From the IMG/VR virus record IMGVR_UViG_3300020577_009873, positions 4,638-68,637 of that record: DNA of 64,000 bases. One strand, written 5' to 3'. The notes below the pieces were generated by a model. The model saw only the letters and a list, made by a program, of their open reading frames with translations. It did no database searches and had not been told where the DNA came from. Shown here piece after piece: positions 51,016 to 62,069 of this stretch (position 1 is its first letter; each line of letters begins with the position of its first letter). The DNA is from a virus. Lineage: Duplodnaviria; Caudoviricetes. A program made the translations under genes and the position numbers.

Positions 51016-53388
51016 TTAATTAAGTGTTAATAATGCTTTTACTTGTACGTTATCAGGAATAGATGCCGGAGTAAATCTTATAAATGTCGTCTCGTTGCCT
51101 TTATCTGTTGTATTATAAGTTGTCCAGTTACTTCCACCATCAGTTGTTTTTTCCCAAGTTCCAGTTCTCGTTACAGAGTCATCCGTGTCTAAAATTCCAT
51201 TAGTAATAGCATTGTATAGTCTTATCTTTAATGTTGGTACAGCGCTACCAAAAGCAATTGCGTGCTTCCATGCAAACGTTTTTGTTACCTTACTAGATAA
51301 GTCAGCACATGATAAATAATGACTATCCTGTGTATCAGTTGACGCATCTTCATAAACACATGTTACCGAATATAAACGTCTAGGAACGCAAAACTCACCT
51401 AATACTTCAAACGTAAACATAAACTGAATATAGTCGCTTGGTGATGCACCAGTTAAATCACCGTTTATAGTTTCTGTCCAACTTCCAGAATTATCATCTA
51501 TACCCGATGTTCTATAATACATTCTTATTGGTTCGGGTGTATATCCTAAAAGAAAATCACCAACATATTGATTGGTAGCCATATATGCCCTATATAAAGC
51601 AGAGGCACCTAATGTTGATAATTTAGGTGTAATGACTCTTTGATTTGAATTATCTGCATAATAACCATCTGCTCCAATATTTAGCACAAGAAACCAGTTT
51701 AGACCAGTCGTTGTAACGTTTGGCATAGCAAACATTCTACCACCCTCAGTCCAAATAGATAAAGCAGCTGTTGAAAATAAGGCATCAACAGCACCTGAAT
51801 TTGTTGTAGTAAGTTTAGTTCGGTTATTTATTTGTCCAAATATCTTTTCAAATTGTGGATTACTTGGATCATAATTACAAGTATATGTTCCGTGTCTTCC
51901 TGCTAAAGTAGTAGAGATTAAAAATTTACCAATTGAATCACTATAGTCTATTTGCAAAAATGCTGAAGTAGCTAAGTTTGTAGTAGTACTACCAGGTGGA
52001 TTCTCAACCATCGAGTCTGCTAACCAGGCGCCACCACCATCCGTAATTGATGAAATAGGACAACGATAAACTCTTGTTAAAGTAACAAAAAATAAAGCTT
52101 TTACACCAGCTGCTGGGCCTAAAGTTGGCGTACATATTCTACCATTATTAACCTGCTGTACTGTACCAGTAACAGTCTGTATAGCTGTTTTATATGACCA
52201 AGCACCAGTTGCATAACCGGTAACTACTGTTAAGGCAGCTCTCATATTAAACCTATGTGCCCTAACTGAAGTTGTATTATCTAAATTTAATAAATATTCA
52301 TCATGTGATGTAGCGGTTCCATTTCCATCATCTGTTAATCCTATTGCGTTTGCCATTAACCCACTATATAAGGTATGTACTCCTGATTGTGATACTGAAG
52401 TATTTACTGCAGCACCACCAAGAGTTGCAGAAACGGTAAATGTATCAGACGTAGGTACTGTCAAAACATAATATGCGGTATTCACTGTAAGTCCAGTTGG
52501 TAAAGCACCTGTAGTTGAGAACATTACAACATCACCAATAATATAACCGTGTCCTACTGCAGTAAACACACCTGGCGACGCTATTGTTACGGTAACAGTT
52601 ACGGGAGCTTTGTCTTTTAATAGATATGATGCTCGTAAATTATCAGTGTTTGTTGCCTCTACTATTGTTGTACCACCTATTTGGAATACACCTGGATTTA
52701 AGCCTTTTATTAAATGTATACCGCCGTTATACAAAGTAGCGTTTGTACAAACCACACCTAATCTTATTTCTTCAATAACATATGCCGTAGCACCTGGTAA
52801 ATTAACAGATCCGGAAATAGTTAAAGATGTATTACTAGCAATAGCTGAAATATCATACCAAGATGAAACCAAAGTCGGATCTGTTGTGCCAAATCCAATC
52901 CTTGCACCTGCCGCTATTCTATCTGAAGTAAATAAAGTGTTACTACCTGTAATTGTTGAAGAGGTTCCAGATGTTGAAACCGTACCATCAGTGTGCATTG
53001 ATACATCAGTACGCAAAGAACGTATTGTTTTAGCACCAGCAAAGGTAGTACCGGATAAGGTGATAAATCCATTCCAAGATATTGTGTTTGTGGATGAATT
53101 ATACGTAAACATCGCAATAGTTCTTGTAACTGCTGCCGTAGCATTCGTACCAGCAAATATCCAAAAAATAGTGGGTGACCATTGATATACGTGTGGACAA
53201 AAATAAGAAGATAACGTAACCTCTACCATATTAATCATAGTAGGTGGTGGAACAGTTACATACTCATCTAGTGTTGTTGCTCCTGTATATTGTTTAAACA
53301 AAGACCCAATTATAGTTTTAGTGGCATCATATCCATCAGTTGTTAAAATAGTATCACCAGTAAAAACATGCTCTACAGCTTTTTTCAT
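51016..53388 (-). CDS. putative tail or fibre protein
   Basis: T/G/S-rich; HGYIIGDVVMFSTTGALPTGL...YYV module; higher GC than flanks. Confidence 0.6.
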   Translation of the reverse strand: MKKAVEHVFTGDTILTTDGYDATKTIIGSLFKQYTGATTLDEYVTVPPPTMINMVEVTLSSYFCPHVYQWSPTIFWIFAGTNATAAVTRTIAMFTYNSSTNTISWNGFITLSGTTFAGAKTIRSLRTDVSMHTDGTVSTSGTSSTITGSNTLFTSDRIAAGARIGFGTTDPTLVSSWYDISAIASNTSLTISGSVNLPGATAYVIEEIRLGVVCTNATLYNGGIHLIKGLNPGVFQIGGTTIVEATNTDNLRASYLLKDKAPVTVTVTIASPGVFTAVGHGYIIGDVVMFSTTGALPTGLTVNTAYYVLTVPTSDTFTVSATLGGAAVNTSVSQSGVHTLYSGLMANAIGLTDDGNGTATSHDEYLLNLDNTTSVRAHRFNMRAALTVVTGYATGAWSYKTAIQTVTGTVQQVNNGRICTPTLGPAAGVKALFFVTLTRVYRCPISSITDGGGAWLADSMVENPPGSTTTNLATSAFLQIDYSDSIGKFLISTTLAGRHGTYTCNYDPSNPQFEKIFGQINNRTKLTTTNSGAVDALFSTAALSIWTEGGRMFAMPNVTTTGLNWFLVLNIGADGYYADNSNQRVITPKLSTLGASALYRAYMATNQYVGDFLLGYTPEPIRMYYRTSGIDDNSGSWTETINGDLTGASPSDYIQFMFTFEVLGEFCVPRRLYSVTCVYEDASTDTQDSHYLSCADLSSKVTKTFAWKHAIAFGSAVPTLKIRLYNAITNGILDTDDSVTRTGTWEKTTDGGSNWTTYNTTDKGNETTFIRFTPASIPDNVQVKALLTLN

Positions 53389-53538
53389 TTAAATAATTAA
53401 TTTTTAATATCAAATTATATAGTAAAATATATCATGTACATTTTATATAAAGCGGAAAAATTATTTAAATAAAAAAACTTTTCGTATATTTGAAAATATA
53501 TAAAAAGAGAGATTAAAAATTTAATATATAAAAAAAGA

Positions 53539-53570
53539 TTTGGTGGGTAGAAAAGTTCGCCGTATCTTTG
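53539..53570 (+). promoter_or_regulatory. Bacteroidota sigma-A promoter for the His/Phe/Trp module
   Basis: TTTG-N20-TATCTTTG. Confidence 0.8.
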
Positions 53571-53597
53571 TGAAACAAATAATAAAAAGAAAAAATC

Positions 53598-53693
53598 ATG
53601 TCATACGTTAGTAAACATAAACATTTTAGCAAATTCCATTTTTGGTTTAGTACCAAGAGTTCGGGAGCTAATATTGTTTTGCCTAATGTGTAA
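53598..53693 (+). CDS. His/Phe/Trp leader peptide MSYVSKHKHFSKFHFWFSTKSSGANIVLPNV
   Basis: 3 His, 4 Phe and 1 Trp within codons 7-17; GAGTTCGGG pairs with terminator arm CCTGAACTC. Confidence 0.88.
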   Translation: MSYVSKHKHFSKFHFWFSTKSSGANIVLPNV

Positions 53694-53716
53694 TGGTGAA
53701 AATAAAAGTATTAGAT

Positions 53717-53747
53717 AAACCTGAACTCGAAAAGTTCAGGTTTTTTT
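53717..53747 (+). terminator. His/Phe/Trp attenuator terminator
   Basis: AAACCTGAACT-CGAAA-AGTTCAGGTTT followed by TTTT. Confidence 0.9.
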
Positions 53748-53767
53748 ATTGCTAAAAATTTATTATT

Positions 53768-54391
53768 ATGAGAGAAATTAAAGAAAATACGTACAAGGGA
53801 ACAAGAATTCTATTAGGAAATGAAAAAAGAGATTTAATTAATAGAATGATAGATGTTCTAAAAGATAGAGGATATATGGAAATTCAAATTCCAATTATTC
53901 AAAATCTAGAAACCTTTAGAAATAAGGTAGGTGATGAAAATAGAAATATGATGTTTTTATTTTCTGATAGAGGAAATAGAGAATTGTGTTTGGCTCCTGA
54001 ATATACCGCGGTAATTCAGTCATTGAGTGATACATTCAAATATAGTAAAGATGTTAAATTGTTCTATGTTCAAGAATGTTTCAGAGGTGAAAGACCACAA
54101 GCAGGTAGATACAGACAGTTTACACAATTAGGTGTAGAGATAATTAATCCAAGTATGGATTATGTTGAAGAACTTTCTTCATTAGCACTCGAACTAGTGT
54201 CAAATGGTAATGTTGATAGATTCAAAGTAGATATGAGTGTTACAAGAGGATTAGATTATTATAAAGATGGAAAAGGATTTGAAATATCCTGTGATGAATT
54301 AGGAGCTCAAAAACAAGTGTGTGGTGGGGGTGAATATGATGGTGGAATTGGGTTCGCGATTGGAATTGATAGAATATTGTTGATTAATTAA
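53768..54391 (+). CDS. hisS: minimal histidyl-tRNA synthetase (catalytic domain only)
   Basis: KGTR, LAPEYTA, FRGERPQAGRYRQFTQLGVE, RGLDYY, GGGEYD, GFAIGIDRI. Confidence 0.88.
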   Translation: MREIKENTYKGTRILLGNEKRDLINRMIDVLKDRGYMEIQIPIIQNLETFRNKVGDENRNMMFLFSDRGNRELCLAPEYTAVIQSLSDTFKYSKDVKLFYVQECFRGERPQAGRYRQFTQLGVEIINPSMDYVEELSSLALELVSNGNVDRFKVDMSVTRGLDYYKDGKGFEISCDELGAQKQVCGGGEYDGGIGFAIGIDRILLIN

Positions 54392-54395
54392 ATAT

Positions 54396-54483
54396 GGTGG
54401 TATTAGTGTCAGCGGTGAGTCTGAAAAGACGAGCACGATACTCTGTGAAAGTATTAGCACCGGTTCAAATCCGGTATATCACC
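54396..54483 (+). tRNA. tRNA-His(GTG) with D-loop hairpin insertion
   Basis: G-1/C73; ATACT-CTGTGAA-AGTAT; T-loop TTCAAAT. Confidence 0.85.
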
Positions 54484-54488
54484 CAAAA

Positions 54489-54564
54489 GGAAGCGGTAGC
54501 TCAGTCAGGTAGAGCAGCGGGGCCAAAATCCCGCGTGTCAGTGGTTCAAATCCATTCCCTTCCA
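54489..54564 (+). tRNA. atypical tRNA with 8-nt anticodon loop (contains CCA; identity uncertain)
   Basis: normal D and T arms; GCGGG-GCCAAAAT-CCCGC; bulged acceptor stem. Confidence 0.65.
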
Positions 54565-54569
54565 CAAAT

Positions 54570-54653
54570 GGTGCAGTAGCTGAGGTGGTGGCGAAAGCCT
54601 ATAGCGCTTGGTCTGAAAAACCAGAGACACCGGTTCGAGCCCGGTCTGTACCA
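54570..54653 (+). tRNA. tRNA-Phe(GAA) with D-loop hairpin insertion
   Basis: GGTGCAG/CTGTACC; TGGT-CTGAAAA-ACCA. Confidence 0.85.
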
Positions 54654-54658
54654 CATAA

Positions 54659-54734
54659 GGTGAACAAGCTAACTTGGTAGAAGCGCCAGACTGAAAATCT
54701 GGAGGATCCGGATCGTAACCGGAGTTCACCACCA
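54659..54734 (+). tRNA. tRNA-Phe(GAA)
   Basis: GGTGAAC/GTTCACC with ACCA; CCAGA-CTGAAAA-TCTGG. Confidence 0.9.
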
Positions 54735-54737
54735 AAT

Positions 54738-54811
54738 GGTGTCTGTAGCTCAATCGGAAGAGCGCAAGTTTGTGGAACTTGAGGCAGCGGGATCGAAACC
54801 CGTCAGACACC
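54738..54811 (+). tRNA. tRNA-His(GTG)
   Basis: G-1/C73; CAAGT-TTGTGGA-ACTTG. Confidence 0.9.
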
Positions 54812-54818
54812 CAAACAT

Positions 54819-54900
54819 ACATCCGCTCATAAGCGTGACCAGCCGGTTCCAACCCGGTAATGCGTAAGCGTGGTTAAGAGTTCGAATCTCTTCGGGTGTT
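54819..54900 (+). tRNA. atypical tRNA(CCA) with reduced D-arm and long variable arm
   Basis: ACATCCG/CGGGTGT; GCCGG-TTCCAAC-CCGGT; AAGAG-TTCGAAT-CTCTT. Confidence 0.7.
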
Positions 54901-54908
54901 CAAAACAT

Positions 54909-54979
54909 ACGTTTGTGGTGCAATGGTAGCATATCGGTCTCCAAAACCGCAGATTCGGGTTCGAGTCCTGACAAGCGTA
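54909..54979 (+). tRNA. tRNA-Trp(CCA)
   Basis: ACGTTTG/CAAGCGT; CGGT-CTCCAAA-ACCG. Confidence 0.88.
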
Positions 54980-55038
54980 CAAATAGGAATACCCAACAGG
55001 GTAAAAAATTATCAGATGAAACTAGAAAAAAATGTCAA

Positions 55039-55782
55039 ATGCTAAAAAAGGAAAAAAATATAAAATACCTAGTGGGGATTCAGCCGACAGGGAAGCTAAC
55101 AATAGGTAACTACCTAGGTTGTTTAAAGAAAGGCCTAAGGCTTCAAGAGGAAGGGCATGATGTTACCTTCTTGATAGCAAACTACCATTCTCTAACAACT
55201 GATAGTTATACTGATGTAACTGAACAGGAATTAATTAAATTAGGTTGTAAGAATATAAAAAGACAAATTCCTGAATATACTGAGTTGTTTTTCAAACTAT
55301 GTTGTAAGTTAAACTTGGGAACATTATTGAAAATGCCTCAATATAAAGACAAAAAGGAAAATGTAGAATTTGACTTGGGATTGATGTTATATCCTGTATT
55401 AATGGCAGCTGATATCATCATTAACGACCCAGATGTAGTAATTGTTGGTAAAGACCAAATAGCTCACTTAGACCTATGTAATGATATTTCTAAGAGATTT
55501 AATGGTAAGTATTACAATTATGAATTAGGTGATGTAGATAAGATTATGTCATTGGCTGATCCAACAAAAAAGATGTCAAAATCTTTGGGAGAAAAACATG
55601 TTCTTTATATCTTTGATGAAAACTATGAAGCAAAAATAAAAAAGGCAAACGCCAACGAAGAGGGTCTTGAAAATCTAAAAAAGATTGGAACAGGAATCGG
55701 AGTTGATGTTGATAAATATGAAATGAATTCTGATTTAAAGAAGGCTATTTCAGACAAAATGAATGAAATTTTTAACAAGTAA
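55039..55782 (+). CDS. trpS: compact tryptophanyl-tRNA synthetase
   Basis: GIQPTGKLTIGNYLG, YPVLMAADI, VGKDQ, KKMSKS; the longer track start overlaps tRNA-Trp. Confidence 0.92.
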   Translation: MLKKEKNIKYLVGIQPTGKLTIGNYLGCLKKGLRLQEEGHDVTFLIANYHSLTTDSYTDVTEQELIKLGCKNIKRQIPEYTELFFKLCCKLNLGTLLKMPQYKDKKENVEFDLGLMLYPVLMAADIIINDPDVVIVGKDQIAHLDLCNDISKRFNGKYYNYELGDVDKIMSLADPTKKMSKSLGEKHVLYIFDENYEAKIKKANANEEGLENLKKIGTGIGVDVDKYEMNSDLKKAISDKMNEIFNK

Positions 55783-55786
55783 TAAA

Positions 55787-55843
55787 ATGACAACAATTAA
55801 AAACATAAAAAAATCTAAAAAACGAATAAAAATGATTCGATAG
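55787..55843 (+). CDS. Lys leader peptide MTTIKNIKKSKKRIKMIR
   Basis: six AAA codons; TGATTCG pairs with terminator arm CGGATCA; four tRNA-Lys downstream. Confidence 0.8.
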   Translation: MTTIKNIKKSKKRIKMIR

Positions 55844-55862
55844 ATAAGCTATTACCTTAACT

Positions 55863-55898
55863 AACCCGGATCAGATTAATTTTCTATCCGGGTTTTTT
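55863..55898 (+). terminator. Lys attenuator terminator
   Basis: AACCCGGAT...ATCCGGGTT followed by TTTT. Confidence 0.85.
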
Positions 55899-55920
55899 AT
55901 ATATAAAATAAAAAAAAATT

Positions 55921-56343
55921 ATGCAAAAAACATATGAATGCAAAGAAATTAATGGATATGAAAATTATTTAATATCTACAAACGGTGATGTTTATAATAA
56001 AAAAACAGGCCGTAAAATGAAAACTAGAATAACCAAAACTGGATATGTAGATGTTTCTATTTGTAATGAAAAAGGAGCTAAAACATTTTTAATACATCGA
56101 CTTGTGGCGATGACACATATTGATAATGTATTTAATAAGCCCTTTGTCAATCATAAGGATCATGATAGAAAAAATAATAATGTTAGTAATCTAGAGTGGG
56201 TGACAGCAGAAGAAAACTCAAATCATATGTTTAGAAAAAAGAAAAAAGGGACTATTTCAAAAACTAAAATTATTGATATTTATGAAAGTAAAAAATGGAA
56301 AAATGTTGAGGATTTTTATAAAGAAATAATTGATAAATATTAA
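55921..56343 (+). mobile_element. NUMOD4-HNH homing endonuclease
   Basis: YLISTNGDV; IHRLVA...VNHKDHDRKNNNVSNLEW. Confidence 0.9.
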
Positions 56344-56416
56344 CCTCTTGTAGCAAACTGGCAGTAGGCAACGGTCTTTTAAACCGTGGGGCCGGGTTCG
56401 ATTCCCGGCGGGAGGA
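56344..56416 (+). tRNA. tRNA-Lys(TTT)
   Basis: ACGGT-CTTTTAA-ACCGT; T-loop TTCGATT. Confidence 0.88.
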
Positions 56417-56421
56417 CAAAT

Positions 56422-56505
56422 TCCTTCGTAGCAAAATTGGTAAGGCGCTTGACTTTTAATCAAGAGTCCGAAAGGACATTCCGGGTTCGAGTCCCGGCGG
56501 GGGAA
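56422..56505 (+). tRNA. tRNA-Lys(TTT) with long variable arm
   Basis: CTTGA-CTTTTAA-TCAAG followed by GTCC-GAAA-GGAC. Confidence 0.85.
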
Positions 56506-56508
56506 CAA

Positions 56509-56580
56509 GATCTTGTAGTTTCAATGGTAAAACCACTGGCTTTTAACCAGTATTTCTGAGTTCGAGTCTCGGCGGGATCA
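56509..56580 (+). tRNA. tRNA-Lys(TTT)
   Basis: ACTGG-CTTTTAA-CCAGT. Confidence 0.88.
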
Positions 56581-56585
56581 CATAT

Positions 56586-56656
56586 TCCCTCGAAGCATTA
56601 AGGTGATGCTCAAGTCTCTTAAACTTGAGAACACGGATCGTTACCGTGCGGGGGAA
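56586..56656 (+). tRNA. tRNA-Lys(CTT)
   Basis: CAAGT-CTCTTAA-ACTTG; T-loop ATCGTTA. Confidence 0.85.
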
Positions 56657-56674
56657 CAAAAAAAAATTAAAATT

Positions 56675-56911
56675 ATGGAAACGCTAACAACAATAAGAGA
56701 AAGATTAGAAACACATTATGAAGGTGTTTATAGAAAGATATGGGTTCAAGGCAGTGCTCGTCATGGTCAAAATGATATTTTATTAACTCTATTTCCTTCA
56801 AATAGTGACGGATATAAGATTGTATCTATGCGAAAGTTAAGAAATATTTCATTTGAAGAAGTGCTCACAGTACTACAAAGAGAATTAAGCATCACAAATA
56901 TATTAGAGTAA
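56675..56911 (+). CDS. hypothetical protein (start METLTT)
   Basis: ATG after an A-rich leader downstream of the tRNAs. Confidence 0.6.
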   Translation: METLTTIRERLETHYEGVYRKIWVQGSARHGQNDILLTLFPSNSDGYKIVSMRKLRNISFEEVLTVLQRELSITNILE

Positions 56912-56926
56912 TTTAATATATAATGG

Positions 56927-57934
56927 ATGAGGTATATTAAAAAATATGAATCTTATAATAAACTTGATGAAATATTAGATATATTTTTTGATCTTGAAGA
57001 AGAAGGATATTCGGTTAAAAGTGCAGAATCAAAAATAGTTGAAGATAGGGATGATTGGGGTGTAAATAATCTAAGATATGTTTATGGTAAAAAATTTATA
57101 AATTATAATAAGGATGTAATATTATCCAAAGGAGGGAAAGTCTATAAGGTTAAGGATGCTATTATTGTCAGAATATCAAAGACACATTATATAAAAAATC
57201 TGACAGATCGAAAAATAATAAAACATTGGAAAATACTAGACTCTGAAATATCTAAAAAAACAGATGTTATAAAAGAGAGATCTGAATTTTTAGGCTTAAA
57301 TTTATATGGAGTCATGGCTGAATGGTATCAACTTGGAAAGGCATCACATATAAAATCATCAGATGAGCCATATTTTGGTTATGATATGATTAATGACTGT
57401 TATACATTTGCATTTTATCCATCCGAAAAAGTACTTGAAAAATTTTATAATCCACCATCTGAAATAAAAGAAAAACTGCACTCTATTGTGAATGACTTAC
57501 TATCTAAATATGAAGGTGGTAAGCCATTTTTTGACGCATTGGATGATGCTATTAAGGATGTTTATAATGAAGATATGATTCTTGCTTTATTAAAGGGCAA
57601 TTCAAATGAATGGATAGCAGCATCTGGTGGATTTGGAGATAGGGTCTATAACCTATGGAAAAGGGGAAAATTTAGGTGTAAAGGAATAGTTGTCTTCAAT
57701 GGTAAAATGATGACAAATAAAACCGGAGTAAACAATTGGTATCCACCAGATTTCGATTTATCAAACAAGGATTATGTATATGTAGATGATTCTTATTTTT
57801 CTGGTGGAACTGCAAGAAAAATAAATGGATTTTTATCTGAACACAATTCAAAAATTAAACACGTATCTGTTATATATGACGGATCAAAGGAAAAAAGCAA
57901 ACTAGTTAAATCATTTTTTAGATACTACAAATGA
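56927..57934 (+). CDS. phosphoribosyltransferase-domain protein with N-terminal MRYIKKYE tag
   Basis: PRPP-binding motif YVYVDDSYFSGGT. Confidence 0.7.
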   Translation: MRYIKKYESYNKLDEILDIFFDLEEEGYSVKSAESKIVEDRDDWGVNNLRYVYGKKFINYNKDVILSKGGKVYKVKDAIIVRISKTHYIKNLTDRKIIKHWKILDSEISKKTDVIKERSEFLGLNLYGVMAEWYQLGKASHIKSSDEPYFGYDMINDCYTFAFYPSEKVLEKFYNPPSEIKEKLHSIVNDLLSKYEGGKPFFDALDDAIKDVYNEDMILALLKGNSNEWIAASGGFGDRVYNLWKRGKFRCKGIVVFNGKMMTNKTGVNNWYPPDFDLSNKDYVYVDDSYFSGGTARKINGFLSEHNSKIKHVSVIYDGSKEKSKLVKSFFRYYK

Positions 57935-58284
57935 AACACATAAAATTTAATCAAACAACTCTTTATAGACCAATTAATGATAAGGAATTAAAGTTGATAT
58001 CAAATAGTGGATATGCTAAATTTCCACCAAGACTTCCAGAACAGCCTATATTTTATCCAGTAACCAATATTGAATATGCTAGACAAATAACTGTCGAGTG
58101 GAATGTTCCAGCATATGGATGTGGATACGTTGTTGAATTTGATATGAATAGTAACTACCTTAAAAAATTTGATATACAAAATGTGGGTGGTGAAATACAC
58201 AATGAACTATGGATTCCGTCGGAAGAAATGGATGAGTTTAATGATAATATTATTGGTAAAATAAGGTTAGTAGAATCATACTAA
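57931..58284 (+). CDS. conserved protein of the family often labelled ADP-ribosylation/crystallin J1
   Basis: TLYRP...FPPRLPEQPIFYPV...HNELWIP. Confidence 0.7.
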   Translation: MKHIKFNQTTLYRPINDKELKLISNSGYAKFPPRLPEQPIFYPVTNIEYARQITVEWNVPAYGCGYVVEFDMNSNYLKKFDIQNVGGEIHNELWIPSEEMDEFNDNIIGKIRLVESY

Positions 58285-58310
58285 AAAAACCTCTCAATTC
58301 GAGAGGTTTT
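58285..58310 (+). terminator. intrinsic terminator
   Basis: AAAACCTCTC/GAGAGGTTTT. Confidence 0.7.
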
Positions 58311-58380
58311 AAAGTTATAATACGAGATTATAACGTGGCCTAAATGAGTATTCTATATATTATTTTTAATATATAGGGTA

Positions 58381-58848
58381 ATGAAATATCTAAATAAATT
58401 TTCAAAGTTCTTTAAAAGAAAAAATGAAAAAAAGGTTCCATTTAAACAAGTTTTAATAAACCTTCAAAAATTTATTGACTCAGTTTGTCCTGATGAAGTA
58501 TCAGTTCGATATCACCAAAAAATGGTGATAAATGATATTAAGGTTCAAAATTTTATACCTCCTGCTGATCAGATACCAAAGTCTTTAGGATTAGGCAGAA
58601 TTAAAATAACCTTACTACAAGATAATGAAAATTATATTTTAATTACTTTACCTTATAATGATCAAATGAAATTTGATATGTTATATTGGAGGGATTTTAT
58701 ATGTCAAGATGGATCAATGCAAAGAGTACCAACTAATACACCACCGGGATATTGGATTCCACAAATAAGTCATGGAGAAGAAGGATCTTTATTTGATAAA
58801 GTTAGGGAATATCTAATAGATAATAATCTGGTTGGTCCAGTTGATTAG
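58381..58848 (+). CDS. hypothetical protein with N-terminal MKYLNKF tag
   Basis: AATATATA upstream; paralog of 59658..59867. Confidence 0.75.
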   Translation: MKYLNKFSKFFKRKNEKKVPFKQVLINLQKFIDSVCPDEVSVRYHQKMVINDIKVQNFIPPADQIPKSLGLGRIKITLLQDNENYILITLPYNDQMKFDMLYWRDFICQDGSMQRVPTNTPPGYWIPQISHGEEGSLFDKVREYLIDNNLVGPVD

Positions 58849-58881
58849 TATATTTAATAAAATTTATTTTATATATAATAT

Positions 58882-59658
58882 ATGATTGATAATTTTAAGC
58901 AATTTGAATTAAATCAAAATTCATATTTCAATGCTGCTAAAAAGGCTGATGAATATGGTCTAAGTAAAAAATCAAAGAGATTATCCGAGTGGGGTAATAT
59001 TGCGGGAACCGTTAATAATAATGTGTCTCCTCATACCTTAGGATATTTTAATCTTGATATGAGTGTTTATAGAAGAAGATTTCAAAAACCTAACATGTAT
59101 AGACCAGATCGAATGGATAATTACACAGGTATTGAATGTTGGCCAACAAATTTAGAAATATCACAATTAAAAAATTTAAGCAATAGAACTACTGATATTG
59201 ACATAGTATATGATGGCCCGATTAAAGCTTATTTACGTGATATTTATTTAGACTGCAGAACTCATGCAAGTAATATTAGATTAGTGCCCTATTTTCATTT
59301 TTTTGATAAAAATAATGATCCAATTTATGCAGACATTCCTGATCCTATTGTTATAGAAATTCCAATTTCTTGGACTATAAACAACGAACATGATAACCGA
59401 AATCCTGCAGAATTATATTTTAAAGTGAAAGGAGAATACAACATTCGTAGTCACGATGAAAGTCGGAAAAATATTCTATTTAATGATAGAAGATCTGCTA
59501 CAAAACTTAAAATGGTAATTAGTAAAATGGATGATTATTATAAAGATAAATATGATCAGGTCAGTGATTTCTTTAAAGAATATTCATATGCTGAGGAGTT
59601 TATCAAATTTTTAGGGATTCTAAAATCAATATCCGTTCATAAACTATATAAAGACTAA
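58882..59658 (+). CDS. hypothetical protein
   Basis: ORF starting MIDNFKQFE. Confidence 0.75.
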   Translation: MIDNFKQFELNQNSYFNAAKKADEYGLSKKSKRLSEWGNIAGTVNNNVSPHTLGYFNLDMSVYRRRFQKPNMYRPDRMDNYTGIECWPTNLEISQLKNLSNRTTDIDIVYDGPIKAYLRDIYLDCRTHASNIRLVPYFHFFDKNNDPIYADIPDPIVIEIPISWTINNEHDNRNPAELYFKVKGEYNIRSHDESRKNILFNDRRSATKLKMVISKMDDYYKDKYDQVSDFFKEYSYAEEFIKFLGILKSISVHKLYKD

Positions 59659-59867
59659 TGAAATATTTAAATATAAAATTATTAGAGGATGATGATACAT
59701 ATATTTTAATTTCACTAGGATATAATCATGATATGAAATTTGATATGATGACGTGGACAGAGAAAGCATCATGGATGAGACAAGTGAGTCATGGGTTAGA
59801 AGGATCTTTATTTGATAAAGTAGCAAATTATCTAACAGATAATGAATTAGTTGACCCTATTATTTAA
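59658..59867 (+). CDS. internally deleted paralog of 58381..58848
   Basis: shared MKYLN, YILI, MKFDM, SHG.EGSLFDKV..YL.DN.LV. Confidence 0.7.
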   Translation: MKYLNIKLLEDDDTYILISLGYNHDMKFDMMTWTEKASWMRQVSHGLEGSLFDKVANYLTDNELVDPII

Positions 59868-59872
59868 ATAAT

Positions 59873-59903
59873 TTTGGTGGGAATAAAAAAAATCGTATCT
59901 TTG
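59873..59903 (+). promoter_or_regulatory. Bacteroidota sigma-A promoter for the Ser/Arg module
   Basis: TTTG-N19-TATCTTTG; closely similar to the promoter at 53539. Confidence 0.8.
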
Positions 59904-59939
59904 TGAAAACAAAGGAATAAAAATATAATATATACAATT

Positions 59940-60005
59940 ATGAAAATGGTTAATACAAATACAAGTTCGTCACGTAGTTCTAACAGCTCGAAAATTCGAA
60001 GTTGA
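59940..60005 (+). CDS. Ser/Arg leader peptide MKMVNTNTSSSRSSNSSKIRS
   Basis: 8 Ser codons of five kinds plus CGT and CGA; AAATTCGAAGTT pairs with the terminator arm. Confidence 0.9.
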   Translation: MKMVNTNTSSSRSSNSSKIRS

Positions 60006-60032
60006 TTGTATTTCTATTGCTATACAATATTG

Positions 60033-60059
60033 AACCTCGAATTTAATTCGAGGTTTTTT
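60033..60059 (+). terminator. Ser/Arg attenuator terminator
   Basis: AACCTCGAAT-TTA-ATTCGAGGTT followed by TTTT. Confidence 0.9.
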
Positions 60060-60066
60060 GTTTTAT

Positions 60067-60139
60067 GGTTCCATCGTCCAACTGGATAGGACATGACCCT
60101 GCGAAGGTTAAGATATGAGTTCGAATCTCATTGGGACTT
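60067..60139 (+). tRNA. tRNA-Arg(GCG)
   Basis: TGACC-CTGCGAA-GGTTA; T-loop TTCGAAT. Confidence 0.88.
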
Positions 60140-60145
60140 CAAATT

Positions 60146-60234
60146 GGTGAGTTAAGCAGCTACATTGGAGTGGCGACCAGCTTTGAAACCTGGGTTTCGT
60201 TAAATCGGATGGGGGTCGGGTCCTCAGCTCACCG
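60146..60234 (+). tRNA. atypical tRNA-Ser(TGA)
   Basis: GGTGAGT/GCTCACC; CCAG-C-TTTGAAA-C-CTGG; long variable arm; T-loop GTCGGGT. Confidence 0.7.
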
Positions 60235-60238
60235 CAAT

Positions 60239-60326
60239 GGAGGGATGGCAGAGTTGGTCTATTGCACCTGACTTGAAATCAGGAGGTCGGGCAACCGATC
60301 CGTGGGTTCGAATCCTACTCCCTCCT
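60239..60326 (+). tRNA. tRNA-Ser(TGA)
   Basis: CCTGA-CTTGAAA-TCAGG; long variable arm. Confidence 0.92.
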
Positions 60327-60331
60327 CAAAT

Positions 60332-60404
60332 GTTCTTGTAGCTCAACGGTTAGAGTTTTCCGCTTCGAACGGAAAGGATGTAGGTTCGAATCCTACCAAG
60401 AATT
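60332..60404 (+). tRNA. tRNA-Arg(TCG)
   Basis: TTCCG-CTTCGAA-CGGAA. Confidence 0.88.
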
Positions 60405-60453
60405 CAAAAAAATTGAACTCACATTTTAATATATAGTGAAAATATGAGTTCAA

Positions 60454-61026
60454 ATGAAATACACAGTATATAAAATAACAAATTTAATAAACGGTAAAAT
60501 TTATATCGGAGTTCATAAAACAGAAAATTTAGACGATGGATATATGGGATCTGGTAAAAATATAAAAAGAGCTATTGACAAATATGGAATTCAAAATTTT
60601 AAAAAAGAATATATTAAAATATTTGACAATCAAGAAGATATGTTTAAAATGGAGTCTGAGTTGGTAAATGAGTTATTTTTATCTAGTCGTGAGAATTATA
60701 ATATAATGAAAGGAGGCCATGGAGGATTTGAACATATAAATAAAAATTGTTGGGATAAAGAAAGTAGAAAAAATCATTTACAAAAAATATACAATTTGGT
60801 TTCAGCTGAAAAAAGAAAGGATATCGGAGCATATATGGGTAAAAATTTTGGAGGTAGTAATAGATTAAGAGAGGATGTAATAAATTATAGATTAAAAATA
60901 CTCGAAACAGTTGACATGTCTAAATATGGTTGGGTAGAAAAAGCTAGTAAATTACTAAATATAACCCATACACAAGTTAGGAGATTTGTAAATAAATATT
61001 ATACGGGGGAATATTATAGAAGATAA
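60454..61026 (+). mobile_element. GIY-YIG (Seg-like) homing endonuclease inside the tRNA array
   Basis: TVYKITNLINGKIYIGVH...YMGSG...YN. Confidence 0.88.
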
Positions 61027-61115
61027 GGAGAGTAAAGTAGCCAGGGTGCTACCACCGCCTGCTAAGCGAGTGGATCGGGTAACTGATTACGTTTCGAGCA
61101 CGTTGCTCTCCTCCA
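61027..61115 (+). tRNA. tRNA-Ser(GCT) with 8/4 fold
   Basis: 8-bp acceptor GGAGAGTA/TGCTCTCC, 4-bp T-stem, 5-bp D-stem, encoded CCA. Confidence 0.8.
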
Positions 61116-61116
61116 T

Positions 61117-61205
61117 GGTAAAATACCCAAGAGGATGTAAGGGGCTCGCTTGGAAAGCGAGTAGGTCGGGAAACTGGCGCATGAGTTCGAATCTCATTTT
61201 TACCG
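61117..61205 (+). tRNA. tRNA-Ser(GGA)
   Basis: CTCGC-TTGGAAA-GCGAG; long variable arm. Confidence 0.9.
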
Positions 61206-61221
61206 CGAAAAAATTAAAATT

Positions 61222-61419
61222 ATGATTTTAGAAGAAAATATAAATGGATTAGTTTTTGTTGAACAAAGGACTTTTTATATCTATAAATCCGAAGAAGATA
61301 GAAAGAATGGAAAGTATTCATTTGTAACTTCTGATGAAGGTTTATTTTTAACTCACAAGGAAAACTTAAGAAAAAAATTGTCAGTTATAAGGGATGAAAA
61401 GATAGATAAAGTTTTATGA
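61222..61419 (+). CDS. hypothetical protein
   Basis: ORF ending RDEKIDKVL. Confidence 0.7.
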   Translation: MILEENINGLVFVEQRTFYIYKSEEDRKNGKYSFVTSDEGLFLTHKENLRKKLSVIRDEKIDKVL

Positions 61420-61438
61420 TCTTTTTAATATATATTCT

Positions 61439-61807
61439 ATGAAGTATATTAAATCCTTTAACGAATCAATTACGACATCAAAAATAGCATTTAATGAATT
61501 CGAAAGGTCTCATATAACAGTACCGTTTACATTGAATGAGGTAGATATAATTAAAAATAATATAGAAACTTCTGTTGTTCTTGGTACGAAAACTGATATT
61601 GAGCTAAATAATGGAAAATGGCAAATATATTATACAGATAAAATATTTATTTCATACTATATAACAAAATATGATGATGAATGGTGGACAGTTCGTAGAA
61701 TAGATTATGCTGGGAGAGAATCTTTATACATTTGTGACCAATTTGATGAATTAATATTATTATTAAAACAGTTAAGATATGATAATAGGAAATTGTCCAA
61801 TATGTGA
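61439..61807 (+). CDS. hypothetical protein with N-terminal MKYIKSFNE tag
   Basis: AATATATA upstream; DDEWW...YICDQFDEL. Confidence 0.75.
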   Translation: MKYIKSFNESITTSKIAFNEFERSHITVPFTLNEVDIIKNNIETSVVLGTKTDIELNNGKWQIYYTDKIFISYYITKYDDEWWTVRRIDYAGRESLYICDQFDELILLLKQLRYDNRKLSNM

Positions 61808-62069
61808 TAGAGAAATGTGGGATGATAGTTCATCTGATCGGCATCATTTCTATCCAAAGTGTAAAGGTGGAAAGGAAACAGAATGGGTGCATAGGGTATG
61901 TCATCGAAAAATACATTCTATTTTTACTGAAAATGAATTGGCTAAAAAATATAATAATGCCGATTTAATCCGAGAGCATCCTGAGATTATTAAATTTATA
62001 AAGTGGGTTTCTAAAAAAGAACCCAATTTTTATGATAGAACCATAACACATAATAGAAAAAAGAGATAG
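61779..62069 (+). CDS. small HNH-type nuclease
   Basis: CPICDR...HHFYPK..GG...HRVCHRKIH. Confidence 0.8.
   Translation: MIIGNCPICDREMWDDSSSDRHHFYPKCKGGKETEWVHRVCHRKIHSIFTENELAKKYNNADLIREHPEIIKFIKWVSKKEPNFYDRTITHNRKKR

What the first reader, a model, noticed from the sequence alone, without database searches (positions are those of the whole stretch)
55787..56656. Lys-sensing leader gating four divergent tRNA-Lys genes, a possible counter to anticodon nucleases
Leader MTTIKNIKKSKKRIKMIR has six AAA codons. TGATTCG (55833-55839) pairs with CGGATCA (55867-55873). Downstream, past an HNH gene, lie three tRNA-Lys(TTT) with three different anticodon stems and one tRNA-Lys(CTT). No synthetase is present. 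Known: tRNA-Lys(UUU) is the target of PrrC and of PARIS AriB, and phage tRNA-Lys variants can rescue infection. Inference: an inducible, sequence-diversified backup. Caveat: AAA is common in this AT-rich genome and the antiterminator is only 7 bp.
Basis: partly seen in the sequence, partly recalled or inferred. Interest (0 to 1): 0.85.

Follow-up and report, generated by a model that had tools for sequence, protein, structure and literature searches.

The report
Lysine attenuator before phage tRNA-Lys genes
A tiny lysine-rich reading frame followed by a transcription stop sits in front of a giant phage's four lysine tRNA genes and probably lets them be made only when ribosomes are short of lysine tRNA; nothing here ties it specifically to host tRNA-cutting defences.

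Summary
An 18-codon ORF (55787-55843, six AAA), a strong intrinsic terminator (55863-55898), an HNH homing-endonuclease gene and four tRNA-Lys genes are all present, and the 7-bp alternative pairing exists.

The reading as a Lys-sensing leader-peptide attenuator is well supported by comparison. The same window has a His/Phe/Trp/Tyr-rich leader before those tRNAs and a Ser/Arg-rich leader before tRNA-Ser/Arg. Three complete relatives (634-735 kb huge phages) follow the same rule, for example a Gln-run leader before four tRNA-Gln. Over 29 units, 0 of 50,000 permutations of leaders against tRNA sets reach the observed match. Leaders also pair better with their own terminator's 5' arm than with others' (0 of 20,000).

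In two close relatives the tRNA-Lys genes start 7-13 nt after the terminator with no HNH gene, so read-through is their only evident source of transcripts.

The anticodon-nuclease idea is not specifically supported. The system covers at least 17 amino acids. Divergent same-anticodon copies are general (12 of 12 sets). The three UUU anticodon loops are identical to one another. In this genome the inserted HNH gene carries a promoter-like motif that may partly bypass the gate.

All evidence is computational. This scan has noted the same control before, on this window (Ser/Arg unit) and on other phage genomes. I found no published account of it.

The parts
53539..53570 (+). Bacteroidetes-type promoter-like site (TTTG ... 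TATCTTTG) that heads the operon in which the Lys leader lies. The Lys leader has no promoter of its own.
   Evidence: Sequence read. TATCTTTGTGAAA occurs exactly only at 53563 and 59896 in the window. The -33/-7 consensus is recalled; the term TAnnTTTG stands in 24 Bacteroides promoter papers (listing only).
53598..53743 (+). Upstream attenuator 1: leader MSYVSKHKHFSKFHFWFSTK... (3 His, 4 Phe, 1 Trp, 1 Tyr, 4 Lys) plus terminator 53717-53743. It gates the HisRS-like gene, five tRNAs and the TrpRS-like gene.
   Evidence: Antiterminator duplex -11.3 kcal/mol, p = 0.007. Weak Rfam Thr_leader hit at 53621-53750, E = 0.16.
55039..55782 (+). Short TrpRS-like gene. Its stop codon lies 4 nt before the Lys leader's ATG.
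   Evidence: Pfam tRNA-synt_1b 3.9e-39. NCBIfam trpS 4.5e-37, below the cut-off.
55787..55843 (+). Lys leader ORF of 18 codons, MTTIKNIKKSKKRIKMIR, with six AAA codons.
   Evidence: Top of 444 sORFs for AAA density. Identical in L001; homologous in L002 as MKTVNKNKKNKRVSLIR.
55833..55839 (+). Antiterminator 5' strand (TGATTCG), lying in the last three sense codons of the leader.
   Evidence: Duplex with the terminator 5' arm is -8.5 kcal/mol, z = -2.9, p = 0.007 over 300 shuffles. Own arm ranks 2 of 29 in the swap control. This is the MFE pairing of the transcript cut before the terminator 3' arm.
55841..55863 (+). Spacer hairpin enclosed by the antiterminator helix. It is kept, with different sequence, in L002.
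55863..55898 (+). Intrinsic terminator: stem 55863-55871 / 55886-55894, three inner pairs, T6 tail. CGGATCA (55867-55873) is the shared strand.
   Evidence: -16 to -20 kcal/mol. G-C to A-U compensatory change in L001 and L002.
55895..55905 (+). TTTTATATATA, a one-mismatch copy of the gene-start motif TTTAATATATA, 15 nt before the HNH ATG. It is a possible separate promoter.
   Evidence: 19 of 75 ORF starts have the motif within 60 nt upstream.
55921..56343 (+). HNH homing-endonuclease gene, an insertion between the attenuator and the tRNAs.
   Evidence: Absent in L001 and L002 and in a related strain's contig.
56344..56417 (+). tRNA-Lys(TTT) no. 1, anticodon stem ACGGT/ACCGT. Shared 100% with L001.
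   Evidence: (45.9 bits).
56422..56506 (+). tRNA-Lys(TTT) no. 2, 85 nt, stem CTTGA/TCAAG, with an extra GTCC-GAAA-GGAC hairpin in the variable region.
   Evidence: (54.4 bits).
56509..56581 (+). tRNA-Lys(TTT) no. 3, stem ACTGG/CCAGT.
   Evidence: (55.4 bits).
56586..56657 (+). tRNA-Lys(CTT) no. 4, stem CAAGT/ACTTG.
   Evidence: (41.2 bits).

Best explanation
The element is a ribosome-mediated (leader-peptide) transcription attenuator that gates a phage tRNA-Lys array.

Proposed mechanism:
1. Host RNA polymerase starts at the Bacteroidetes-type promoter at 53539-53570. It passes attenuator 1, the HisRS-like gene, five tRNAs and the TrpRS-like gene, and then reaches the 18-codon Lys leader.
2. 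If Lys-tRNA(UUU) is plentiful, the ribosome runs to the TAG stop and covers TGATTCG (55833-55839). The terminator then forms and transcription stops at the T-run.
3. If the ribosome stalls on AAA codons 5-12, TGATTCG stays free and pairs with CGGATCA in the terminator's 5' arm as soon as that arm emerges. The terminator cannot form, and the polymerase reads on into the tRNA-Lys genes.
4. New tRNA-Lys relieves the stall. The result is a demand-driven negative feedback on tRNA-Lys supply.

Shown here: all sequence parts, their conservation, the match of leader codons to downstream tRNAs across a family of such units, and the specific leader-terminator complementarity.

Inferred: translation of the leader, stalling, and regulated read-through.

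In this genome an HNH homing-endonuclease gene has been inserted between gate and array. It may add a second, ungated source of transcripts.
For: 1. Anatomy is complete.

2. Leader composition predicts the downstream tRNAs.
- In the window, three leaders cover 13 of 13 ARAGORN tRNAs: H/F/W/Y, K, and S/R.
- In LR756502, 7 units cover 42 of 43 ARAGORN tRNAs of four loci. Examples: MTTSFQQQQQQQINRTD before Gln x4, and E/Y before Glu/Tyr.
- In LR745206, 8 units. In LR756501, 3 units, for example MNNILHINLLNSLCLLGIKLIG before Leu x5.
- Permutations reaching the observed match: 1 of 5040, 1 of 40320, and 0 of 50,000 for all 29 units (273 of 710 residues matching against 103.0 expected).

3. Lys specifically: the K fraction of the leader is higher in the 6 units with tRNA-Lys downstream than in the 23 without (one-sided Mann-Whitney p = 0.0028).

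4. Antiterminator.
- Own-arm duplex averages -10.2 kcal/mol against -7.35 for swapped arms, with 0 of 20,000 permutations as good. The Lys unit gives -8.5 against -4.0 and ranks 2 of 29.
- Shuffle p = 0.007.
- In transcripts cut before the terminator 3' arm, the antiterminator is the MFE structure in the window (-9.6), L001 (-13.5) and L002 (-26.8 kcal/mol). It is abolished by a ribosome on the stop codon and kept with a ribosome stalled on Lys codons 5-12.

5. Conservation.
- L002 keeps leader, terminator and tRNA-Lys behind a different upstream gene.
- G55868 to A in the 5' arm is compensated in the 3' arm and stays compatible with the leader's U.

6. No room for a promoter: the tRNA-Lys genes start 7-13 nt after the T-run in L001 and L002.

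7. The same genome uses the same device for ileS and valS, and a relative uses it for aspS.
Against: - There are no expression data. RNA-library contigs were uninformative.
- At equilibrium the terminator (-16 to -20 kcal/mol) beats the 7-bp antiterminator in every ribosome state modelled, so the switch must be kinetic.
- There is no convincing 1:2 protector hairpin, only 5 bp, so untranslated RNA would also antiterminate.
- A stall on AAA codon 15 would mask the antiterminator strand.
- A-runs give AAA in any frame, so frame specificity cannot be tested for Lys.
- Antiterminator significance is weak in 7 of 17 units (p > 0.14).
- Units from different genomes are homologous, not independent.
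- In this window the HNH gene's promoter-like motif may bypass the gate.
- Only three sequences carry the dedicated Lys leader.
Confidence: 0.75

Rival explanations
1. Counter-defence reading: the attenuator exists chiefly to switch on a set of nuclease-resistant, sequence-diversified tRNA-Lys when a host anticodon nuclease (PrrC, PARIS AriB or the like) destroys host tRNA-Lys(UUU).
For: - The sensor would respond to any loss of Lys-tRNA(UUU).
- AriB cuts E. coli tRNA-Lys in the anticodon stem (between positions 40 and 41), and a base-pair swap there gives resistance. T5 tRNA-Lys rescues infection (passages of PMC11464382; abstract of PMC12409363).
- The four window tRNA-Lys have four different anticodon stems.
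- One copy has an extra arm and one has swapped tertiary pairs.
Against: - Nothing is Lys-specific. Codon-matched leaders gate tRNAs for at least 17 amino acids.
- All 12 of 12 multi-copy same-anticodon sets in LR756502 have all-different anticodon stems, at 51-86% identity.
- The three UUU copies share one anticodon loop.
- The host and its tRNA-Lys are unknown, so resistance changes cannot be scored.
- No RNA-repair or anti-nuclease gene was found beside the array.
- AAA is the commonest of the 28 codons tabulated for the phage's long ORFs (6.9%), so plain demand explains a Lys sensor.
Confidence: 0.12
2. Constitutive terminator plus a chance A-rich sORF: the hairpin only ends the hisS-tRNA-trpS transcript, and the tRNA-Lys genes are made from the promoter-like motif of the HNH gene or by leak.
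For: - The genome is 29% GC and A-rich on this strand.
- AAA is common.
- The antiterminator is only 7 bp with one G.U pair.
- TTTTATATATA lies 15 nt before the HNH ATG.
- The terminator always wins at equilibrium.
Against: - Only 2 of 444 sORFs are this AAA-rich.
- L001 and L002 lack the HNH gene, and their tRNA-Lys genes abut the terminator.
- ORF, K codons, antiterminator and terminator are kept in L002 behind another gene.
- The family-wide codon match and own-arm complementarity are not expected by chance.
Confidence: 0.08
3. Relic gate: the attenuator worked in the ancestor, but in this genome the HNH insertion with its own promoter has uncoupled the tRNA-Lys array from it, so the array is now expressed with that promoter class.
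For: - The HNH gene replaces two tRNA-Lys genes present in L001.
- The motif sits at 55895-55905.
- Exact copies of the motif sit 4-28 nt before eight ATGs.
Against: - The leader and terminator are intact and 96.6% identical to L001.
- The function of the motif is unknown.
- Read-through transcripts would still reach the tRNAs through the HNH gene.
Confidence: 0.05

Closest known systems
Leader-peptide attenuators of amino-acid biosynthetic operons (trp, his, phe, thr, ilv, leu leaders of enterobacteria). Recalled, except that the pheL paper PMC3082878 was seen as an abstract in the listing and as one passage.
   Same: A short ORF enriched in the sensed codons, an intrinsic terminator, an alternative helix that shares the terminator's 5' arm, and multivalent leaders in sister units.
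   Different: The cargo is tRNA genes, the sensed molecule itself, rather than biosynthetic enzymes. The element is phage-borne. There is no clear 1:2 hairpin. No Rfam leader family matches the Lys unit.
Leader-peptide attenuation of a synthetase operon (E. coli pheST, pheM leader). Recalled; not checked in a paper.
   Same: Attenuation applied to the translation apparatus. The same phage has Ile, Val and (in a relative) Asp leaders before ileS, valS and aspS.
   Different: The Lys unit gates tRNA genes only. No LysRS is present in the contig or in LR756502.
T-box riboswitches (recalled).
   Same: They sense the charging state or supply of one tRNA and act by terminator/antiterminator choice on translation-related genes.
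   Different: T-boxes bind the tRNA directly and need no translation. No T-box match at E <= 1 in 53000-62000.
Anabaena trn L-array (PMC8421152, passages; PMC10272220, abstract).
   Same: A spare tRNA array that is silent until translation is impaired.
   Different: It is controlled at the promoter by the repressor TrcR and direct repeats. The main text of PMC8421152 has 0 occurrences of 'attenuat', 'leader peptide' or 'terminator'. That response is global, not per amino acid.
Phage T5 tRNA-Lys against PARIS AriB (PMC11464382, passages; PMC12409363, abstract).
   Same: A phage-borne tRNA-Lys(UUU) with an altered anticodon stem.
   Different: Resistance was shown experimentally there. Here the host, the nuclease and resistance are all unknown, and no inducible control is described in the T5 passages I read.

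Membership tests
Leader-peptide (ribosome-mediated) transcription attenuator | Short ORF with start and stop just upstream of the regulated genes | tested here: met
   ATG 55787 to TAG 55843, 18 codons. Kept in L001 and L002.
Leader-peptide (ribosome-mediated) transcription attenuator | Enrichment of codons for the sensed amino acid | tested here: met
   6 AAA in the 17 codons after the ATG, against 6.9% in long ORFs. Only 2 of 444 sORFs are as rich.
Leader-peptide (ribosome-mediated) transcription attenuator | Intrinsic terminator between the leader and the cargo | tested here: met
   55863-55898. Not listed by the consensus scan, whose loop limit is 8 nt.
Leader-peptide (ribosome-mediated) transcription attenuator | Antiterminator helix that shares the terminator 5' arm and is masked by a ribosome at the end of the leader | tested here: met
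   7 bp, -8.5 kcal/mol, p = 0.007. Rank 2 of 29 in the swap control. Ribosome-mask folding. Modest in size.
Leader-peptide (ribosome-mediated) transcription attenuator | 1:2 protector/pause hairpin that gives termination without translation | tested here: inconclusive
   Only CGAAU/AUUCG, 5 bp, appears in the MFE fold. In the truncated transcript the free RNA forms the antiterminator.
Leader-peptide (ribosome-mediated) transcription attenuator | Cargo functionally tied to the sensed amino acid | tested here: met
   Four tRNA-Lys. Family-wide match: 0 of 50,000 permutations reach it.
Leader-peptide (ribosome-mediated) transcription attenuator | Read-through rises when the cognate charged tRNA is limiting | not testable with these tools
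   Only contigs of RNA libraries were available.
T-box riboswitch | Specifier loop and T-box sequence that score against the Rfam model | tested here: not met
   No T-box hit among 19 matches at E <= 1 in 53000-62000.
Nuclease-evading phage tRNA (T5 tRNA-Lys type) | Same anticodon as the targeted host tRNA | tested here: met
   Three UUU copies and one CUU copy.
Nuclease-evading phage tRNA (T5 tRNA-Lys type) | Anticodon stem-loop changes relative to the host tRNA that block cleavage | not testable with these tools
   The host tRNA is unknown. The stems differ among copies, but so do those of 12 of 12 other same-anticodon sets.
Nuclease-evading phage tRNA (T5 tRNA-Lys type) | Rescue of infection in the presence of the nuclease | not testable with these tools
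   Bench test only.

The most novel reading that the evidence does not exclude
The Lys unit is a damage sensor as well as a supply gauge. When a host anticodon nuclease removes tRNA-Lys(UUU), ribosomes stall on the leader's AAA codons. The phage then switches on a set of structurally odd tRNA-Lys that the nuclease cannot cut: four different anticodon stems, one copy with an extra GAAA-capped arm, and one with swapped 8:14 and 54:58 tertiary pairs. The whole family of codon-matched attenuators in huge phages would then be an inducible, per-amino-acid counter-defence against tRNA-targeting immunity.
Probability: 0.12. Interest if true: 0.92.

Novelty: new variant of a known kind. Interest (0 to 1): 0.72.

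Why it matters
Phage tRNA genes are usually discussed as constitutive supplements for codon usage or as decoys against tRNA-cutting defences. Here the tRNA genes seem to be wired to a sensor that reads the very quantity they supply. If so, huge phages run a per-amino-acid homeostat on the host's translation system, using the oldest known RNA switch logic on a cargo for which I found no published case.

Six literature searches and the main text of the huge-phage paper found nothing on leader peptides or attenuation before tRNA genes. The nearest in print is a repressor-controlled spare tRNA array.

The idea is directly testable with reporter fusions and cell-free coupled transcription-translation. 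It also offers compact codon-specific sensors of tRNA supply.

Tried and rejected
- Equilibrium folding of leader plus terminator with ribosome masks. The terminator is the MFE in every state, so equilibrium cannot show a switch. I turned to the co-transcriptional intermediate instead.
- Consensus promoter/terminator scan. It did not list the Lys terminator because of its loop limit. Sigma-70-like sites were fewer than in shuffles (33 against 45.7).
- RNA evidence. 20 runs hold the stretch, 4 of them on record as RNA. Contigs of four RNA-library runs were laid. They come from related strains, are long and roughly even, may be DNA carry-over, and show no transcript ends. Two contigs of one study end at 55783, which is not evidence. 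One useful by-product: a relative's contig has only about 194 nt between 55873 and 56509, so it has no HNH gene.
- More Lys leaders. Two pattern scans of IMG/VR were run. The strict pattern found only the two contigs already known. The loose one added 7 unrelated stretches of 51-65% GC with no tRNA nearby, which are chance matches.
- T-box or known leader families. None matches the Lys unit.
- Stop-codon recoding, because the leader ends in TAG. Code 11 gives 75 ORFs of 100 aa or more. Reading TAG or TGA as sense adds little, and L002's leader ends in TGA. Rejected.
- Function of the ORFs behind the array (56675-58284). No Pfam or PHROG family was found except a sub-threshold PRTase-CE hit. 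Atlas look-alikes are leads only. Nothing links them to tRNA repair.
- LysRS. None in the contig or in LR756502.
- Supplementary files of the papers were not opened. Supplementary tables of PMC7162821 on tRNAs might bear on the novelty claim.
Full report
WHAT IS THERE

The window is 64 kb of a 68.6-kb viral contig. CheckV rates the contig 13% complete, and it has 29% G+C. Its nearest public relatives are the 634-735 kb uncultured huge phages LR756502, LR756501 and LR745206. The main text of PMC7162821 places these in the Mahaphage clade with predicted Bacteroidetes hosts (passages).

- A short TrpRS-like gene ends at 55782 (Pfam 3.9e-39).
- Four bases later an 18-codon ORF runs from 55787 to 55843 and reads MTTIKNIKKSKKRIKMIR, with six AAA codons.
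- An intrinsic terminator follows: stems 55863-55871 and 55886-55894, three inner pairs, and a T6 tail. The 143-nt region folds with z = -4.5, and 0 of 200 shuffles fold as well. My hairpin scan also finds it.
- An HNH/NUMOD4 homing-endonuclease gene occupies 55921-56343.
- Four tRNA-Lys genes abut its stop codon, three with anticodon TTT and one with CTT. ARAGORN calls them. Rfam scores are 45.9, 54.4 and 55.4 bits, and 41.2 bits for the fourth when searched alone.
- TGATTCG (55833-55839) pairs with CGGATCA (55867-55873) over 7 bp, including one G.U pair.

IS IT MORE THAN CHANCE?

AAA is 6.9% of codons in the window's long ORFs. Of 444 ATG-to-stop sORFs of 12-30 codons on both strands, only 2 reach six AAA or 33% AAA. 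One is this leader and the other lies inside a long ORF.

THE DECISIVE EVIDENCE IS COMPARATIVE

An automatic scan took plus-strand terminators with a tRNA within 1600 nt downstream and the longest ATG sORF ending within 60 nt upstream. In the window itself it found three units that between them precede 13 of 13 ARAGORN tRNAs:
- MSYVSKHKHFSKFHFWFSTK... before a HisRS-like gene, tRNAs (Phe, His, Trp among them) and the TrpRS-like gene.
- The Lys leader before tRNA-Lys x4.
- MKMVNTNTSSSRSSNSSKIRS before tRNA-Arg, Ser, Arg, Ser.

I found these two sister units before opening the scan's earlier notes, which list them too.

The relatives show the same rule.
- In LR756502 the four large tRNA clusters were located with RF00005 (50 hits) and fetched. 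Seven units there precede 42 of 43 ARAGORN tRNAs. Their leaders and cargos are: K/H/F/W before Phe, His, Lys; S/R before Arg, Ser; E/Y before Glu, Tyr; I/G/A before Ile, Gly, Ala; N/L/T/V before Asn, Leu, Val, Ile, Thr; D/P/Q before Pro, Asp; and MTTSFQQQQQQQINRTD before four tRNA-Gln.
- LR745206 and LR756501 repeat the pattern. Examples are MTTTQQIQQQQINQTD before Gln x3, MNNILHINLLNSLCLLGIKLIG before Leu x5, and MNFRIINMIQEQMQQIQ... before Met, Gln, Ile.

I counted leader residues whose amino acid has a tRNA in the unit behind it and permuted leaders against tRNA sets:

| Set | Units | Matching residues | Mean in permutations | Permutations reaching observed |
|---|---|---|---|---|
| LR756502 | 7 | 68 of 188 | 27.3 | 1 of 5040 |
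| LR745206 | 8 | 79 of 197 | 29.1 | 1 of 40320 |
| All | 29 | 273 of 710 | 103.0 | 0 of 50,000 |

Rows left out:
- L001, which is near-identical to the window.
- Three terminators with no sORF: L003 16-45 at the locus edge, L024 3707 and L029 1863.

Non-matching units were kept (L004 3170 with 0 of 8, L030 1801 with 1 of 9). One further unit, L037, whose leader is rich in A, R, G, T, V and P and precedes an Arg/Thr/Val/Ala/Gly/Pro cluster, was seen only by eye and is not in the counts. One cluster (L033) showed no leader.

Units in different genomes are partly homologous, so the within-genome permutations are the fairer figures.

For lysine alone, the K fraction of the leader is higher in the 6 units followed by tRNA-Lys than in the 23 that are not (one-sided Mann-Whitney p = 0.0028).

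THE SWITCH

Leaders pair with their own terminator's 5' arm better than with other units' arms. The mean is -10.19 against -7.35 kcal/mol, and 0 of 20,000 permutations do as well. The Lys unit gives -8.5 against -4.0 and ranks 2 of 29. Against 300 shuffles of its own leader the Lys duplex has p = 0.007. Across 17 units, 10 have p <= 0.063 and 7 have p > 0.14.

At equilibrium the terminator (-16 to -20 kcal/mol) wins in every modelled state, so any switch must be kinetic.

In the transcript cut just before the terminator's 3' arm, the results are:
- The MFE structure is the antiterminator, enclosing a small spacer hairpin: window -9.6, L001 -13.5, L002 -26.8 kcal/mol.
- It vanishes when a ribosome footprint (-15 to +12 around the A site) sits on the stop codon.
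- It persists when the footprint sits on AAA codons 5, 8, 9, 11 or 12.
- It is lost for codon 15.

Unlike the classical trp design there is no convincing 1:2 hairpin, so untranslated RNA would read through.

CONSERVATION

L001 has a TrpRS 98% identical to the window's. It has the identical leader and a terminator in which G55868 is A, with the partner changed to keep the pair. Its antiterminator is 9 bp, all Watson-Crick.

L002 is more distant. It keeps a 17-codon leader (MKTVNKNKKNKRVSLIR, four AAA and one AAG), TGATTCGG, the spacer hairpin in other letters, and the terminator. There the module sits behind a HisRS-like gene instead of TrpRS.

In both relatives there is no HNH gene, and the first tRNA starts 7-13 nt after the T-run. 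This leaves no room for a promoter, so these tRNA-Lys genes can only be reached through the terminator.

Compared with L001, the window's HNH gene (55906-56340) replaces two long tRNA-Lys genes. tRNA no. 1 is shared at 100%. Numbers 2-4 stand where L001 has another ORF. The array is therefore a hot spot of homing-endonuclease turnover behind a stable gate.

A CAVEAT SPECIFIC TO THIS GENOME

The motif TTTAATATATA, allowing one mismatch, occurs 50 times against 21 expected. 19 of 75 ORF starts have the core within 60 nt upstream. A one-mismatch copy lies at 55895-55905, 15 nt before the HNH ATG. If it is a promoter, the array has a second, ungated input here.

THE ANTICODON-NUCLEASE IDEA

[quoted passage not shown] The PrrC part is recalled only.

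Nothing here singles out lysine, however:
- The same control covers at least 17 amino acids.
- Every one of 12 multi-copy same-anticodon sets in LR756502 has all-different anticodon stems at 51-86% identity, like the window's Lys set at 60-68%.
- The three UUU copies share one anticodon loop.
- No repair or anti-nuclease gene was found nearby.
- AAA is the commonest of the 28 codons tabulated for the phage's long ORFs, so demand alone explains a Lys gauge.

A stall-sensing gate would respond to nuclease damage as to any other shortage, so the idea is not excluded. I give it about 0.12.

COMPARISON AND NOVELTY

The mechanism is that of the classical leader-peptide attenuators. The same genome applies it to ileS and valS, and LR756502 applies it to a non-discriminating aspS. 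What is unusual is the cargo, tRNA genes alone.

Six library searches found no account of leader peptides before tRNA genes. The main text of the huge-phage paper contains neither 'attenuat' nor 'leader'.

The nearest in print is the Anabaena spare tRNA array, which is induced under translational stress but through a promoter repressor.

This scan has reported the same control before. It did so on this window's Ser/Arg unit and on at least seven other phage genomes, including a crAss-like phage and phages of 159, 325 and 597 kb. Those are unchecked AI notes, not independent support.

VERDICT

- Observation: confirmed.
- Interpretation: partly supported. The attenuator reading is supported; the nuclease reading is not.
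- Novelty: new variant of a known kind.
- Confidence in the attenuator reading: 0.75.
- Interest: 0.72.

Noticed in passing
window 56422-56506; L001 2653-2839; L009 4481-4750: tRNA-Lys genes of 82-91 nt with a long variable arm. The window copy carries a GTCC-GAAA-GGAC hairpin. Long-arm tRNA-Lys recur in relatives. A long extra arm is unusual for tRNA-Lys (recalled).
   Followed up: partly
window 56586-56657: tRNA-Lys(CTT) has A at position 8 with U at 14, and A at 54 with U at 58. Both conserved tertiary pairs appear swapped rather than lost (read). tRNA-Phe 54659-54734 also has the A54/U58 form.
   Followed up: no
window 54570-54654: ARAGORN calls this tRNA-Tyr(ata). By eye it reads better as tRNA-Phe(GAA) with a GGC-GAAA-GCC hairpin inserted in the D-loop. 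Rfam matches only 54584-54653 at 31 bits.
   Followed up: no
window 54813-54908: A stretch between tRNA-His and tRNA-Trp that neither ARAGORN nor Rfam calls. By eye it has an acceptor-like pairing, a standard T-arm and a possible CCA anticodon loop with a long extra arm.
   Followed up: no
window, for example 10239, 14408(-), 56912, 58365, 60425, 61424: The motif TTTAATATATA lies 4-28 nt before many ATGs. With up to one mismatch there are 50 sites against 21 expected. 19 of 75 ORF starts have the core within 60 nt upstream. It is probably a phage promoter class giving very short 5' leaders.
   Followed up: partly
L039 416-530 (LR756502 about 426215-426330): An Asp-rich leader MRKIIKLKDDRYLWTDCLAD plus terminator directly before a non-discriminating AspRS gene.
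   Followed up: partly
L003 1334-1400: After an HNH gene and just before three tRNA-Lys there is a 12-codon ORF, MKTMKTEIKRKR, and a 7-bp hairpin without a T-run. It may be a remnant or a variant Lys leader.
   Followed up: no
L038 1786 and 1864 (LR756501): Two tRNAs with anticodon CTA, labelled 'Pyl' by ARAGORN. They are suppressor-like and hint at TAG read-through in the 735-kb phage. The window itself shows no sign of recoding.
   Followed up: no
window 56927-57934 and 57931-58284: The ORFs behind the tRNA-Lys array are a 335-aa protein with a C-terminal PRTase-like part (Pfam E = 0.0079; Atlas look-alikes 0.85-0.87) and a 117-aa protein. The latter's Atlas look-alikes (0.96) are auto-named ADP-ribosylation/crystallin J1. 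These are leads only.
   Followed up: partly
L033 1700-1870 (LR756501): A tRNA cluster (Ile, Cys, Asp, Asn, Tyr) with no leader or terminator seen upstream. A G+C-rich, possibly structured stretch lies there instead.
   Followed up: no
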